From the IMG/VR virus record IMGVR_UViG_3300042472_000301, positions 1-64,000 of that record: 64,000 nt of DNA, one strand, 5' to 3'. Of the stretch, positions 6,110-59,626 are shown in pieces. Both the position numbers and the translations under genes were made by a program. The notes under the pieces were generated by a model. That model was not told the origin of the DNA. It saw only the letters and a list, made by a program, of their open reading frames with translations, and ran no database searches. This DNA comes from a virus. Position 1 is the first letter of the stretch; the number at the start of each line of letters is the position of its first letter.

Positions 6110-6279
6110 AACTTGACCTCTCATTAGACGAGATCAATAAAATCTTGGGTGTACTTGGGCGTCAGCCTTACCAAGAAGTTGAGCAATTAATTGCCAAGGT
6201 TCGTCGTCAAGCGTTACCGCAGTTGCAAGAGCCTGAAGCAGAAGAAGGTGTTGTTTACTATCCAAAAGTAGCCGAGTAA
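6106..6279 (+). CDS. Small hypothetical protein (57 aa, MKLDLSLDEINKILGVLGRQPYQEV...)
   Basis: Read by hand; ATGA overlap and AGGAG RBS. Confidence 0.7.
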   Translation: MKLDLSLDEINKILGVLGRQPYQEVEQLIAKVRRQALPQLQEPEAEEGVVYYPKVAE

Positions 6280-6381
6280 GGTTCAGGGGGCGGTTAGGCA
6301 AGCATTTGAGGATGTCGTAAGTGCGTGTTTTTCTTGCCTTCCAACGCGTATGCAGTAACGGCCAAATCAACGCCCCCACCT
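6279..6381 (+). ncRNA. Candidate structured RNA with pseudoknot
   Basis: GGGGGCG(6286-92)/CGCCCCC(6371-77) outer stem; nested stems; AGGCAAG(6296-6302) complementary to loop CTTGCCT(6333-39). Confidence 0.55.
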
Positions 6382-55926: not shown

Positions 55927-55955
55927 AATGTAAAGCTTTTTTTTAACTGAGTCAA
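55927..55955 (-). promoter_or_regulatory. Sigma70-type promoter of the phage B small-gene operon
   Basis: TTGACT-17 nt-TACATT. Confidence 0.65.
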
Positions 55956-57700
55956 TAAAGTTTATGAAGACCTACGTCTATCAGAATCTTAATCGCCTCG
56001 CTCATGTACCACTGGTAGTCGATATCAGTGGGTAAAACTTCTGGCAGCTCCATGATTGGCACCGCGTTGTCTGACTTGGGTACCTTGTTGCCGTTCTTCT
56101 TGTAGCGTATGAAGTCACCCTCAGTAGCGCGGTACCAGCGCACCACCTTGCCCAAGTACCTGCCCCTGTAGATCGCACCTGTGCGCACCGCACGCACCGT
56201 GGCAAAGAGCGTGATGTCCTCGCAGCCGTAGATGGTCTGCCTGATCGGTGTGCCCTCTGCCAAGTACTTCACGGCCGCGATCGAGCATATCTCGTTAGCC
56301 GGGCTCTTTGAGAGCGTGGTGGCAGCATACGCACCCTTGAGCTTGACGCGGCCGTCTGGCTTGATGGCCACGTAGCTGTTCACGTCACGCGAGTGCAGCG
56401 CGCGGTAGGCGGCCTCCTCGGTCACAAAGCCCGTGCACTTCTCCCACTTAACCACAGCCTCCTGCACGGCCACGTAGCGCGTCTTCTTGCCCCGTATCAC
56501 GATGCCGTCGGTGTTTGCACTCACCACCTGCGCGCCCGCGCCCTCTACCATCGCGATCAGGTCAAGTAGTGCTAACTGGCCGGTGAGCGTGACCTGCACG
56601 AGCAGGCCCGGTGAGTACAGGCAGCTATACCTGCTGCCAAGCTTACCGAAGGTGCCGTTAAGCGCAATCTTGAGCGTGTCCGAGGTCACCTTGTCACCCG
56701 CGGCCTTGGCGGCCAGCCTGCGCTCGTAGATGGTCGTGTACACGTCAAGGAAGGCCTCGCCCATCGTCTCTGGGTACAGGCCGCACTGCAGGATGATCGA
56801 GGGGTAGTAGGACGCCACGTCGCGCTCGATTAAGAACTCGTCCTCGGCCACGATGTGCGTGATCGCGCTCTCGGTGCTGTGCAGGCCGCCGATCCCCATG
56901 CGGTAGTTGCCAGCGCGGTAGTTGCCAGCGCGGTAGTTGTCTAGCGCCTCGCACTTGGGTGAGCCTGTGTCGGCGATCACGAAGTCGCACGCGCGCACGA
57001 AATCAAGCGCTTCGCTCTCTTGGATGAATGGGGGTGCCTTGTACTTAAACACCTTGCCGATCGTCACACGGGGCTTGCCAACGGGCTTACCGGTCACGTT
57101 GTGCACCTCGGCCTTGATCACGGCCTCTGCAATCTGCGCGTCGGACTTGCTGCGCAGGTCTTGGCCGTACTGGTCGCCTAACTTCTCACGCAACGCGATC
57201 TGGGGCTGCAGGCGCTCGTAGAGCATGAGGGTCACATTTAGGTCGTTCTCGCAGTACTCGCGCAGCGCCACGCGGTCGGTAGGCGTGATGCTTGCCGATG
57301 GCTCGATGGGTAAATCCTGCATCTTGGGTGCGCCCATACGCCCGGCGTAGTTCTTAAGCCCTGTGAGCCCCGGTGCGACCTCGATTAAGTCGATGTGGTT
57401 CACACCCTTGGGCGCGCGCAGGTCAAGCTCCCACGGCCGTGTGTCGTGCACGATGATGTTGTCTGAGTGATCTTTAAGCTCTTGGCAGCTCGCGCCCTCG
57501 AGCGCGGCGTTCAAGAGCGGCATGTCGTAGCCGTTGCCGTTAAACGTCACCACGCAGACCTTGCTCAGCACGCTGCGCAGTGCGTCGCGGTTCAGGTCGT
57601 GGCCTTCGTACATCTCGTAGTACATCGTCTTTTGCTGGTCTTTCAGCATGACGAGGAAGTAATCCTTGTAGACCTCAATATCTAGTGCGACCGTTTTCAT
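55952..57700 (-). CDS. DNA polymerase, family B-like (phage type)
   Basis: DIE (exo I), FNG..YD (exo II), YC.ND (exo III), DVASYYP, K..LNG.FGK, NTDG. Likely ATG at 57700. Confidence 0.9.
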   Translation of the reverse strand: MKTVALDIEVYKDYFLVMLKDQQKTMYYEMYEGHDLNRDALRSVLSKVCVVTFNGNGYDMPLLNAALEGASCQELKDHSDNIIVHDTRPWELDLRAPKGVNHIDLIEVAPGLTGLKNYAGRMGAPKMQDLPIEPSASITPTDRVALREYCENDLNVTLMLYERLQPQIALREKLGDQYGQDLRSKSDAQIAEAVIKAEVHNVTGKPVGKPRVTIGKVFKYKAPPFIQESEALDFVRACDFVIADTGSPKCEALDNYRAGNYRAGNYRMGIGGLHSTESAITHIVAEDEFLIERDVASYYPSIILQCGLYPETMGEAFLDVYTTIYERRLAAKAAGDKVTSDTLKIALNGTFGKLGSRYSCLYSPGLLVQVTLTGQLALLDLIAMVEGAGAQVVSANTDGIVIRGKKTRYVAVQEAVVKWEKCTGFVTEEAAYRALHSRDVNSYVAIKPDGRVKLKGAYAATTLSKSPANEICSIAAVKYLAEGTPIRQTIYGCEDITLFATVRAVRTGAIYRGRYLGKVVRWYRATEGDFIRYKKNGNKVPKSDNAVPIMELPEVLPTDIDYQWYMSEAIKILIDVGLHKLY

Positions 57701-57719
57701 CGTGTTCTCCGTTTTAGTT

Positions 57720-57930
57720 GTTGGCATACTACTCGCTGCACCGTGGCAAGCTGTTCTCAGCGACTATCTAGAATGGCTGCTGGGCGCTACCCATCACCAC
57801 AGCATCTGCTTTCACATACCAACACGGCTGAGGACTGCTATTCGGGCATAGGGTCTTACGACTTGCTGCTCTGTGGTTACGGCAATCCCCATGCGTGTTG
57901 GTGCCGGGCTTTGGGTTCAGGTGCCCGGCG
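57720..57930 (-). ncRNA. Candidate tandem structured RNA between SSB and polymerase
   Basis: GCCGGGC/GCCCGGC; ACCAACACG..GGGGATTGC/GCAGTCCTC..CGTGTTGGT; third multibranch domain. Confidence 0.55.
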
Positions 57931-57943
57931 ACCTGTAATGACT

Positions 57944-58507
57944 TTACCAGTCCTCGCCTGATGCCTCGTAGGCACCGAGCTCGTTGACCGCGTCGGTCAT
58001 GGCCTTGGCTGCGCCACCGAACGGTGTGCCGTCGGCGACCTTCTGCACGACGTTGAGCTCGAGCGTCACGCCACCCTTTTGTGAGGTGCCGTAGGCCTTG
58101 GCGTTCAGGCTGGCGCGCACGTAGCAGCCACCGTAGACCTCGAGCTCGTCAAGAATCTCGGCGCTGTTGGCGTCCACGATGCGCGGGCGCTGCTTGTTGC
58201 TCGCCTTGATGACCCAGTTGCCCTTGGCCGCAGGGTCGTCGACCTCGTCGCCGTCGGTGATACCCCAGCGCTCAAAGTTCGTGGGCACCTTGGTCGGGTA
58301 GAGCTCCTTCACCGCGGCGTCTTGGGCTGCGCGCAGGTCGTCGATAAACTTCTTCTCGGCCTTGGGCACGAGCAGGCTGATCGAGTACTTCGGGTCACCC
58401 TCGCCTTGGAAGGCTGTGGGCTTGAAGATGTGCGGATAGGACGCACGTGCTTTGGGTGAGTTAACTCGTGAAGAGCGTGTAACTTGGATTTTAGCGGCGG
58501 TTGCCAT
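57944..58507 (-). CDS. ssDNA-binding protein, DUF2815 family
   Basis: RASYPHIF.P, KYS..LL, DGD, YGGCY.RA, GV...LN.VQK..DG..FGG; acidic tail. Confidence 0.88.
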   Translation of the reverse strand: MATAAKIQVTRSSRVNSPKARASYPHIFKPTAFQGEGDPKYSISLLVPKAEKKFIDDLRAAQDAAVKELYPTKVPTNFERWGITDGDEVDDPAAKGNWVIKASNKQRPRIVDANSAEILDELEVYGGCYVRASLNAKAYGTSQKGGVTLELNVVQKVADGTPFGGAAKAMTDAVNELGAYEASGEDW

Positions 58508-58528: not shown

Positions 58529-59626
58529 TTAAGAACGCAGCAACTCGGCGAGCGCTGCATCGTTTGTGCTGAGTTCCGATCGCTTGTCCTCGATCGTTGT
58601 CAGCGTGGGTTTACCGGGCGGCTTGGTAATTAAATCACCAAGTAACTCGGTAAATTTCTTCTTGCCAACGAGGGTTTCGATGGCACCTATTCCAAGCAGC
58701 TTTGTAGCATAAATATGTTCGGACTTGAAGTCGTTTGTTAAAAGCCTGTCTGCAACCTTTGCATCGTCTGACCAACTGCGCACGCTGCGACCTTCGACCA
58801 ACTTCAAACCCGGTAACTTCACGCCAGTCTCTGCACGCTTAAGCGCTTGATCCTGCAAGTCGTTTGCCCACGCGACGATGCCAGCAAGTTTGGGGTAGAT
58901 GGCTGCAAGCTCTGCATCGGCCATCAGCTCGCCTGCGGGTTGGTCAGACACTGTTGCAATCATCATGTCAGCGCGTGCCCGGCACGAGTGACGCGCCTTG
59001 CAGAACCGGCAGTGGTCACCTGCAACAGCCTCGCCCTCGCCCTTAAACGCGATCTCAGCAATTGGCTTGACTGTCTCGCCCCATGCAAGGAGTGCGTCAA
59101 CGTTGGTGGCCCACGAGCTGATGTTATGAATGCGTGGCTGCACGATGTGGAGCACGATGTCAGTGAAGGGCCCGTACACCAAGTCGTACTCGTTAATCGC
59201 ACCCAAGCCGTAGAGCATGGCCTGTGAATTATTCTCAACGTCCACGGCCACACCCTTGCCGTGCTTGTAGTCAAAGACGTGGATGGTCTGGCGATCGATC
59301 AGCACGCAGTCGCTCGTACCAAAGCCTTCGGGCACCCACGGGCTCACGTCAAGCTTAACCTCCACCAGCATGTGCTCGTGCTTGAACGAGCGCACGTAAT
59401 CGAGGTAGATCTGCACCGCGTCGCGCATCTCTTGGCTGTAGTCACCGATAATTTCATCGGCCGGTTTGCCTGTCACCAGCGCGCGCTCACCGAGCTCGTG
59501 CGCCAGACGACCCTCGGCCGCGTATGGGCTCTGCTCGTCGGGGAAGTGCGACTCAAGCCGCACACTCGGTGTGCAATTTAACCACTGGTGGCTCTTGGAG
59601 CATCCGAGGTAGGCGTGCTCACTCAT
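58529..59626 (-). CDS. DUF2800-type PD-(D/E)XK (Cas4-like) nuclease
   Basis: HA.L..S...W..C, EG..AH, FGTSD, DYKHG.G, HCRFC...SC, KLVEGRS.R.W. Confidence 0.9.
   Translation of the reverse strand: MSEHAYLGCSKSHQWLNCTPSVRLESHFPDEQSPYAAEGRLAHELGERALVTGKPADEIIGDYSQEMRDAVQIYLDYVRSFKHEHMLVEVKLDVSPWVPEGFGTSDCVLIDRQTIHVFDYKHGKGVAVDVENNSQAMLYGLGAINEYDLVYGPFTDIVLHIVQPRIHNISSWATNVDALLAWGETVKPIAEIAFKGEGEAVAGDHCRFCKARHSCRARADMMIATVSDQPAGELMADAELAAIYPKLAGIVAWANDLQDQALKRAETGVKLPGLKLVEGRSVRSWSDDAKVADRLLTNDFKSEHIYATKLLGIGAIETLVGKKKFTELLGDLITKPPGKPTLTTIEDKRSELSTNDAALAELLRS

What the first reader, a model, noticed from the sequence alone, without database searches (positions are those of the whole stretch)
57700..57943. 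Tandem structured RNA with mutually exclusive pairing ahead of the phage B polymerase, at the same slot as the phage A RNA
Seen on the minus strand: hairpin GCCGGGC/GCCCGGC (57903-57929); long stem ACCAACACG-CAT-GGGGATTGC...GCAGTCCTC-AGC-CGTGTTGGT (57818-57902); a third domain with GCTGTGGTGA/TTGCCACGGT, small hairpins TGGG/CCCA and GCTG/CAGC, and purine-rich GAAAGCAGA and GAGTAG flanks. GTTGGTATG can instead pair with TATGCCAAC (57720-57728) close to the pol RBS, competing with the long stem. Inference: two unrelated phages both keep structured RNA between SSB and polymerase, suggesting an ncRNA cassette or switch tied to replication.
Basis: partly seen in the sequence, partly recalled or inferred. 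Interest (0 to 1): 0.7.

Follow-up and report, generated by a model that had tools for sequence, protein, structure and literature searches.

The report
Swappable phage RNA stalks behind SSB
The gap between this lake phage's SSB and DNA polymerase genes holds an optional cassette of two folded RNA "stalks", each from a large uncatalogued family of phage RNAs that carry interchangeable tips, including tRNA-like ones; their function is untested.

Summary
Minus-strand 57718-57902 encodes two adjacent structured RNA modules.

- **Module A (57817-57902):** an irregular hairpin of about 20 bp with a conserved U.G wobble and a swappable tip.
- **Module B (57718-57826):** a closing helix, a loop-E/S-turn-like core (GAA/AGUA), a GC clamp, a second conserved loop, a helix, and then variable cargo.
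- **Support:** both are backed by compensatory changes. No Rfam family matches either.
- **Distribution:** Cargo-free minimal forms exist, and one cargo is a genuine tRNA. Members often sit in arrays interleaved with tRNA genes.
- **Link to SSB:** module B typically lies 5-15 nt after SSB-type genes of several unrelated families and ends in helix + ACC.
- **Not a required switch:** sister phages with 83-97% identical SSB lack the element entirely.
- **Phage A RNA:** it is a different family by covariance model.

My reading is an accessory, horizontally shuffled small-RNA cassette. It is probably excised from the SSB-polymerase transcript by tRNA-type processing. That step is inferred; I found no expression data. 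The scan had noted this same stretch once before, from an overlapping window.

The parts
57903..57929 (-). Hairpin GCCGGGC-N13-GCCCGGC at the SSB gene's end, followed by ACCA. Flanks the cassette but is not part of it.
   Evidence: Present in all 10 relatives, including the empty-site ones. One compensatory change in L010 (GCCGGAC/GUCCGGC).
57817..57902 (-). Module A: stalk hairpin. Outer stem 57894-57902 / 57818-57826. 3x3 loop CAU (57891-57893) / AGC (57827-57829). Inner stem GGGGAUUGC (57882-57890) / GCAGUCCUC (57830-57838), containing the conserved U.G wobble.
   Evidence: Homologues in at least 119 IMG/VR contigs, 156 distinct versions. Inner stem 96-100% paired with covariation. About 190 G.U cells versus 7 A.C cells in that stem, so the structure is specific to this strand.
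57839..57881 (-). Apical cargo of module A (43 nt, with a GUC-GUAA-GAC hairpin). The swappable part.
   Evidence: Replaced by unrelated inserts of about 5-130 nt in near-identical phages. A cargo of the same type, with a compensatory GGC-GUAA-GCC hairpin, occurs in L274 and L340.
57718..57826 (-). Module B: stalk with loop-E/S-turn-like core. Closing helix GUUGGUAUGU (57814-57823) / GUAUGCCAAC (57720-57729). GAAAGC 57808-57813. AGAUG 57803-57807. P2 CUGUGG (57797-57802) / CCACGG (57741-57746). UGCAGCGAGUA 57730-57740.
   Evidence: CM R1 hit 57720-57821, 67.9 bits, E = 2e-17. Family covariation score 0.50 versus 0.15 shuffled (0 of 500 shuffles reach it) and at most 0.155 when partners are slid.
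57747..57796 (-). Apical cargo of module B: GGUAGCGCC element, covarying hairpin CAGC/GCUG with a CUAG loop, and invariant AACAGCUUGC. Possibly a decayed tRNA body.
   Evidence: Hairpin pairs 50-53/69-72 carry compensatory changes. Similarity to tRNA-type cargos is weak (z 2-4). The same cargo sits behind a classical SSB in L118 and in a 5' leader in L191/L242.
57698..57717 (-). Linker AAC-UAAAAC, RBS GGAG (57707-57710) and the polymerase start ATG (57698-57700).
   Evidence: Same start and RBS spacing in relatives with and without the cassette. PolB-like by Pfam, but every match is below the curated cut-off.

Best explanation
The region is an accessory small-RNA cassette built from two conserved scaffold modules, which I call stalks. 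Each stalk presents an exchangeable apical insert. The cassette is transcribed with the SSB-polymerase message on the minus strand.

Shown:
- Both stalks are real, strand-specific structures under selection.
- Both belong to large families of uncultured (mostly lake) phages. A few module B members lie in genome contigs: one isolate (Cupriavidus sp. U2) and four MAGs, three of them labelled betaproteobacterial or Polaromonas.
- The stalk, not the insert, is the conserved functional unit, because cargo-free 36-nt and 48-nt forms exist.
- Inserts are shuffled between near-identical phages, and the whole cassette is dispensable.
- Module B prefers the position just after SSB-type genes.

Inferred:
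- The stalks act as punctuation and end-protection signals. They let the host's tRNA-type processing machinery (RNase P at the 5' G of the closing helix, 3' trimming to the ACC/ACU tail; possibly RNase III on the 20-bp irregular helices) cut stable RNAs of about 50-150 nt out of a highly expressed early transcript.
- The released RNAs then act in trans through their variable, often tRNA-like tips, for example as decoys or cofactors.
- The GUUGG segment shared by the base of A and the clamp of B gives two alternative folds that may order folding or processing.
For: - No Rfam family or tRNA matches in the window.
- Presence/absence and cargo swaps occur among SSB-identical relatives.
- Module B covaries, and CM R1 recovers further variants that do not match the fixed pattern, in 18 of 100 module-A loci.
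- Module A statistics and its G.U >> A.C strand asymmetry.
- Distribution: at least 118 and at least 119 viral contigs.
- Minimal B of 48 nt in L290 and minimal A in L016.
- The cargo of L116 is a tRNA-Thr by ARAGORN and by Rfam tRNA at 30 bits.
- Module A copies lie next to or within clusters of tRNA genes, 2 nt after a tRNA's CCA end in L351 and L339.
- In about 45 of 55 non-window-type B members the closing helix is followed by A-C-C, usually with G at +1.
- Where a promoter-like box directly precedes a module, the predicted start falls at the module's first helix (L113, L191/L242).
- Upstream genes are SSB-type from unrelated families.
Against: - There is no expression or end-mapping evidence. 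The RNA-library contigs laid on the region came only from relatives lacking the cassette.
- RNase P and RNase III involvement is an analogy from end design and helix length. It was not tested.
- Strong sequence conservation of about 20 loop nucleotides is more than a processing signal usually needs. It would also fit a specific protein or ligand site, or a catalytic core.
- The window's own B tail is ACU, not ACC.
- The tRNA ancestry of the window's cargo is weak.
- The regular position between an SSB stop codon and the next RBS also fits a cis-acting role.
Confidence: 0.45

Rival explanations
1. Cis-acting operator or stability element of the replication operon. The module B stalk, sitting between the SSB stop codon and the next gene's ribosome-binding site, would bind a protein (SSB itself or a host factor). 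Alternatively it would simply stabilise the SSB message's 3' end. Either way it sets the SSB:downstream-gene expression ratio. This resembles the T4 gene 32 operator or REP/RNase III hairpins between cistrons.
For: - B lies 5-15 nt after the stop codons of SSB-type genes from several unrelated families, and 10-25 nt before the next start codon.
- The 3' flank is unstructured and A-rich. Some downstream genes lack a Shine-Dalgarno sequence.
- The stalk alone (48 nt) is sufficient and conserved.
Against: - Sister phages do without it.
- The same stalk occurs in tRNA/sRNA arrays with no ORF downstream, and behind promoter-like boxes in 5' leaders.
- Unrelated SSB families would not be expected to recognise one identical RNA motif.
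- Downstream genes differ.
Confidence: 0.2
2. One or both stalks are small self-cleaving ribozymes of an undescribed class. They would cut arrays and operon transcripts into units.
For: - About 20 near-invariant nucleotides sit in internal loops between covarying helices, with arbitrary hairpin insertions tolerated and minimal sizes of 36-48 nt. That is the usual signature of small ribozymes.
- The context is phage ncRNA arrays.
- A hammerhead-like string lies next to the module in L008/L029, by my reading.
- Module A carries a conserved U.G wobble and an A-GUC string. From memory, these are reminiscent of group I P1 and of the hairpin-ribozyme substrate.
Against: - No known ribozyme model matches, even at E <= 10.
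- In L002's second module A copy the 3x3 loop is fully base-paired, which argues against that loop being an active site.
- No cleavage evidence of any kind.
Confidence: 0.1
3. DNA-level element. The imperfect palindromes would act as single-stranded DNA recombination sites (attC-like) that mobilise RNA cassettes, or as a replication or priming signal near the replication genes.
For: - Module A has the formal layout of an integron attC site: R-box-like CCAAC/GUUGG, an unpaired spacer, an L-box stem and a variable terminal structure.
- The cassette in the window is flanked by CCAACA(C) direct repeats, and empty sites keep one copy.
- Arrays of cassettes exist.
- The element lies next to SSB, PolB and a VapE-like (primase-helicase type) gene.
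Against: - All copies checked are co-oriented with flanking genes, tRNAs, promoter-like boxes and terminator-like hairpins.
- One cargo is a working-looking tRNA.
- No integrase was seen, but none was searched for.
- Extra units are flanked by about 20-nt identical scaffold sequence, so ordinary homologous exchange explains the shuffling.
- The core is 6 nt, not the 7-nt attC consensus.
Confidence: 0.1

Closest known systems
Bacterial Y RNAs of the YrlA type (Ro/Rsr-associated; recalled from Chen et al. 2014, not re-read here)
   Same: A conserved basal stem formed by the 5' and 3' ends carries a tRNA-like module (T-arm, D-arm). Found in bacteria and phages.
   Different: I could not recognise the Ro-binding helix sequence. 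No Rsr gene was looked for. The stalks here also exist without any cargo and carry many cargos that are not tRNA-like. No Rfam Y RNA hit.
RNase P-matured small RNAs: tRNA precursors, 4.5S RNA precursor, P1/P7 c4 and P4 CI RNAs (from my own knowledge)
   Same: Paired 5'/3' ends with G at +1 and a 3' A-C-C tail directly after the helix. Embedded in longer transcripts. One member holds a true tRNA body.
   Different: The S-turn and second conserved loop have no counterpart in those RNAs. Processing was not tested. The window's copy has ACU, not ACC.
T7-type RNase III processing hairpins between early genes (from my own knowledge)
   Same: Intercistronic, roughly 20-bp irregular helices with a central internal loop. 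A multi-copy family within phages. Dispensable individually.
   Different: Far stronger loop-sequence conservation across unrelated phages. Apical cargos. Association with tRNA arrays. No cleavage data.
Integron attC sites
   Same: Conserved outer inverted core (CCAAC/GUUGG versus RYYYAAC/GTTRRRY), an unpaired spacer, an inner stem and a hypervariable tip. Arrays of cassettes.
   Different: 6-nt core. The inner stem is conserved in sequence. The orientation is tied to transcription. The cargos are RNAs lying inside and between the hairpins. No integrase was seen.
T4/RB69 gene 32 translational operator (also named by the earlier follow-up on the phage A RNA, e1-6072261)
   Same: A structured RNA tied to an SSB gene, with an adjacent unstructured A/U-rich stretch that reaches a start codon.
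   Different: It lies downstream of the SSB gene rather than upstream. It is optional, has a different fold, and is also found away from SSB genes.

Membership tests
Any Rfam 15 family (including hammerhead, hairpin, twister, pistol, hatchet, HDV-like, group I intron, SRP, 6S, Y RNA, c4, STAXI, radC) | Covariance-model match at the gathering score, or at least at E <= 10 | tested here: not met
   No hits on the window at gathering score. No hits on 57680-57960 at E <= 10. No relevant hits on related loci; the only relevant hit was tRNA in L116.
tRNA | Cloverleaf recognised by ARAGORN or the Rfam tRNA model | tested here: not met
   No tRNA in the window. The window's cargo has only weak similarity to tRNA-type cargos (z 2-4). 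By contrast, L116's cargo passes both tests.
Module B stalk family (defined here, model R1) | Closing helix + GAAAGC / GCGAGUA core + GC clamp + P2, scored by a covariance model | tested here: met
   67.9 bits, E = 2e-17 at 57720-57821. The window's sequence was in the seed alignment, so the score is partly circular. Independent members score 27-67 bits.
Module A stalk family (defined here by motif) | ACG-CAU-G..GAUUG [insert] CAGUC..C-AGY-CGUGUUGG, with an 8-bp covarying inner stem and a U.G wobble | tested here: met
   The window copy has every element.
RNase P substrate (acceptor-stem mimic) | G at +1, paired ends, 3' N-C-C(A) tail; cleavage by RNase P | tested here: inconclusive
   The end design is met in about 45 of 55 non-window-type family members. 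The window copy has ACU. Cleavage cannot be tested with these tools.
Integron attC | 7-nt R''/R' cores RYYYAAC/GTTRRRY, extrahelical bases, an associated IntI integrase | tested here: not met
   The core is ACCAAC/GTTGGT, one base short. No integrase was looked for. Orientation follows transcription.
Y RNA / YrlA | Ro-binding helix with a conserved bulge; a neighbouring rsr gene | not tested
   No Rfam Y RNA hit. Whether Rfam holds a bacterial YrlA model was not checked, and rsr was not searched for.
T4 gene 32-type operator | Pseudoknot 5' of the SSB gene, followed by an unstructured repeat region bound cooperatively by the SSB | tested here: not met
   The element is 3' of the SSB gene, is absent in sister phages, and has a different fold. 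Binding cannot be tested here.

The most novel reading that the evidence does not exclude
Modules A and B would be the conserved 'sockets' of an RNA-level cassette system in phages. The stalks would be self-processing or enzyme-guided, and would let phages shuffle, display and release a large repertoire of tRNA-like and other structured RNA tips, for example as decoys against tRNA- or RNA-targeting host defences. The shared GUUGG strand would time release. In effect this would be an integron-like logic for small RNAs.
Probability: 0.15. Interest if true: 0.9.

Novelty: new variant of a known kind. Interest (0 to 1): 0.7.

Why it matters
If the reading holds, two abundant phage RNA families with no catalogue entry share an unusual design. 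The design is a sequence-conserved stalk that tolerates any insert, from nothing to a full tRNA, and is exchanged between near-identical phages.

This would give a handle on several questions:
- How phages express and mature small RNAs from early operons.
- Why such RNAs cluster behind SSB genes.
- What the many tRNA-like fragments in viromes are for.

The 48-nt and 36-nt minimal forms are small enough for direct biochemistry: cleavage assays, protein pull-downs and structure determination. A cultured carrier (Cupriavidus sp. U2) exists for genetics.

Tried and rejected
- **Thermodynamics.** Single-sequence folding of the whole gap is not exceptional (z = -1.4), so I made no argument from stability.
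- **Rfam.** Six Rfam searches found nothing but one tRNA.
- **tRNA scans.** ARAGORN on the window and on close relatives found nothing.
- **Expression.** The RNA-library runs X19-X22 held only contigs of relatives at 90-99% identity. One contig (X20) bridges 57705 to 57895 without the cassette. Two others (X19, X22) stop at 57895, which is where the alleles diverge, so the stop is most likely an assembly break. This is no evidence for or against transcription of the cassette.
- **Motif scans.** The metagenome scan with an 18-mer was mostly chance hits; 13 of 81 were kept after requiring the 3' motif. The first genome-contig scan found nothing. The second gave 34 hits, about the number I estimated for chance, and the CM kept 5.
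- **Cultured phages.** BLAST of the gap and of the minimal B found only uncultured spring viromes. Curvibacter phage PCA1 and Variovorax phage VPv62 have no module B.
- **Group I or II intron.** Rejected. The possible boundaries lack the U/G or GUGYG/AY ends, and the element is too small.
- **Small ORF.** Rejected. Inserts differ by lengths that are not multiples of three and carry stop codons, and whole modules are present or absent.
- **Phage A RNA as a relative.** Rejected by the CM (-1 bit), although the end design is alike.
- **Literature.** Sequence-string and keyword searches found no description. A 2023 catalogue of 10,006 viral candidate RNAs (PMC10690425) may contain these families unnamed, but its tables are not held.
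Full report
**1. Setting.** On the minus strand the window encodes a DUF2800 nuclease (58529-59626), an Enc34-type SSB (57944-58507) and a PolB-like polymerase (55952-57700; Pfam matches all below the curated cut-off). A VapE-like primase-helicase gene lies on the plus strand. The 243-nt gap between SSB and polymerase is the finding. The window is part of a 92.9-kb virus record from lake water.

**2. The features are present.** Folding the gap alone is unremarkable (MFE -82.6 kcal/mol, z = -1.4), so the case rests on comparison with relatives. Rfam has no match at gathering score for the whole window, nor at E <= 10 for the gap. ARAGORN finds no tRNA.

**3. The element is optional and modular.**
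- Ten IMG/VR relatives with 83-99% identical SSB were fetched.
- In L006, L007, L009 and L010 the SSB-distal hairpin is followed almost directly by the polymerase RBS; in L006, L007 and L010 the junction reads ...ACCAACAC|AGGACACACG-ATG.
- L003, L005 and L008 carry one copy of the two-module element, with different inserts.
- L001, L002 and L004 carry a second module A unit.
- L008 has further downstream modules.
- The hairpin at 57903-57929 is present in all ten. It therefore belongs to the SSB gene end, not to the cassette.
- The insert is flanked by CCAACA(C) repeats. Extra units are flanked by about 20 nt of identical scaffold sequence, so ordinary homologous exchange can explain the shuffling.

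**4. Module B (57718-57826).**
- The architecture, from base to tip:
  - a closing helix of 5-7 bp;
  - GAAA opposite GAGUA, a loop-E/S-turn-type AGUA/GAA motif (my reading of the sequence);
  - two G-C pairs;
  - a second loop, RRAU opposite GCA;
  - a G.U pair;
  - a helix of 5-6 bp;
  - a variable insert of 4 to about 90 nt.
- On 68 diverse sequences the named structure is 83% paired against 63% in shuffles. The covariation score is 0.50 against 0.15, with 0 of 500 shuffles reaching it. Sliding the partners gives at most 0.155.
- Within the window's own cargo type, the helices P2 and CAGC/GCUG also show compensatory changes.
- A covariance model (R1) hits the window once (67.9 bits). It finds independent variants in 18 of 100 loci that were collected with a different motif.
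- One of these is a 48-nt cargo-free hairpin capped by GAAA, in L290. The stalk is therefore the conserved unit and the insert is dispensable.
- One insert (L116) is a tRNA-Thr(UGU) by both ARAGORN and the Rfam tRNA model. Several others carry T-arm-like hairpins.
- The window's insert resembles these only weakly.

**5. Module A (57817-57902).**
- A gapped search found at least 119 contigs and 156 distinct versions.
- The 8-bp inner stem is 96-100% paired, with multiple pair types at four positions.
- A U.G wobble in the GAUUG/CAGUC context is kept in 87% of versions.
- G.U pairs outnumber A.C mismatches by about 190 to 7 in the stem. The structure is therefore read on this strand, as RNA or as single-stranded DNA.
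- Inserts range from a trinucleotide loop (L016) to more than 100 nt.
- In many loci, units of the form [A][GUUGG-X-CCAAC] repeat in arrays, and A copies lie next to or between genuine tRNA genes. Examples: L328, L351, L339 and L367.
- In L351 and L339 module A begins 2 nt after a tRNA's CCA end.
- The arrays also contain sigma70-like promoter boxes and terminator-ended hairpin RNAs.

**6. The competing pairing.**
- GUUGG at the 3' base of A is also the 5' end of B's closing helix.
- In the window the two folds differ by 2.7 kcal/mol.
- In L111, L113, L120 and L165 B's closing helix is exactly GUGUUGG/CCAACA(A)C, so the competition there is complete.
- The 5' partner is often CCAAG, which gives a G.G mismatch. 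This suggests the B clamp wins in the final fold.
- The feature is conserved, but I have no evidence that it regulates anything.

**7. Context of module B.**
- In roughly half or more of the non-window-type members, the stalk starts 5-15 nt after the stop codon of an SSB-type gene. These are:
  - Enc34/DUF2815;
  - DUF669, called SSB by PHROGs;
  - classical SSB ending in DDIPF;
  - 300-aa proteins ending in DWDDE;
  - proteins ending in VPF.

- Other upstream genes are an endonuclease and a MazG.
- Downstream genes vary: HTH proteins, PolB, DUF927 primase-helicases and nucleases.
- Some copies sit in 5' leaders right after a promoter-like box (L191/L242).
- In about 45 of 55 non-window-type members the closing helix is followed by A-C-C, usually with G at +1. 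From my own knowledge this is the end design of tRNA and 4.5S RNA precursors.
- R1 also hits five genome contigs: the Cupriavidus sp. U2 chromosome, a Polaromonas MAG, two betaproteobacterial MAGs and one MAG labelled Armatimonadetes. In Cupriavidus sp. U2 the copy lies in a RecT/nuclease prophage module.

**8. What it most likely is.**
- The solid conclusions are that the RNA structure is real, that the cassette is optional, that it is shuffled horizontally, and that it belongs to two families Rfam does not hold.
- The mechanism I commit to is excision by tRNA-type processing, followed by action in trans through the variable tips.
- That mechanism is inference from four observations: the end design, the tRNA neighbours and cargos, promoter-proximal copies that start at the stalk base, and dispensability.
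- Three rivals remain open: a cis-acting operator or stability element for the SSB operon, an undescribed small ribozyme, and a DNA-level attC-like or priming signal.

**9.
- 'Tandem structured RNA' and 'cassette' hold.
- 'Tied to replication' holds only as a statistical preference of module B for SSB-type genes.
- 'Same slot as the phage A RNA' is a coincidence of neighbourhood. R1 scores that RNA at -1 bit, although both end in a G/C helix followed by ACCUAUAAA.
My test agrees with that.

**10. Limits.**
- I have no expression data for the cassette.
- Invariance of the core strings is partly imposed by my search patterns, although the CM hits relax this.
- Host assignment is indirect.

Noticed in passing
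L008:4790-4963 and the matching stretch of L029 (minus strand): A hammerhead-like string follows module B: stem I UAUGC/GCAUA, CUGAUGA, a 2-bp stem II with GAAA, GAAAC, a stem III with GCAA, and GUC. Rfam gave no hammerhead hit at E <= 10.
   Followed up: partly
L014 (minus), L016:5300-5640, L039:2400-2730: A conserved non-coding block of about 400 nt lies downstream of the RNA array (begins GGGCGCAUUAGCUAAUAGAGUGACC). No Rfam match. Possibly a large structured RNA.
   Followed up: no
L014, L016, L017, L021, L029, L040, L328 arrays: Sigma70-like boxes TTGACA-N17-cATAAT have a covarying hairpin with a GAAAGA loop as their spacer. They are followed by hairpin RNAs of about 130 nt that end in U-tract terminators.
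   Followed up: partly
window 6279-6381 (+): The phage A RNA is not a module B member by CM, yet it has the same end design: a GGGGGCG...CGCCCCC helix followed by ACCUAUAAA.
   Followed up: partly
window 57903-57929 (-): The SSB-distal hairpin is followed by ACCA in the window and in most relatives, including empty-site ones, so it looks like an acceptor minihelix. One compensatory change occurs in L010.
   Followed up: partly
L021:2461-2548, L029, L040:1-78 (oriented as): Small hydrophobic ORFs of about 27 aa (for example MKYTFWSEVCGAISLVICFIMMILLVGCL) sit immediately upstream of the RNA arrays. Their stop codon lies inside a conserved CCUUUAGCAAGC string.
   Followed up: no
L241:1049-1155 (-), Cupriavidus sp. 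U2 chromosome: A module B copy (59 bits) lies in a prophage-like RecT / PD-(D/E)XK module of a cultured bacterium. This is a possible experimental system.
   Followed up: partly
window 57727 (-): An in-frame ATG 27 nt upstream of the polymerase start lies inside module B's closing helix. Relatives without the cassette show that the real start is at 57700.
   Followed up: yes
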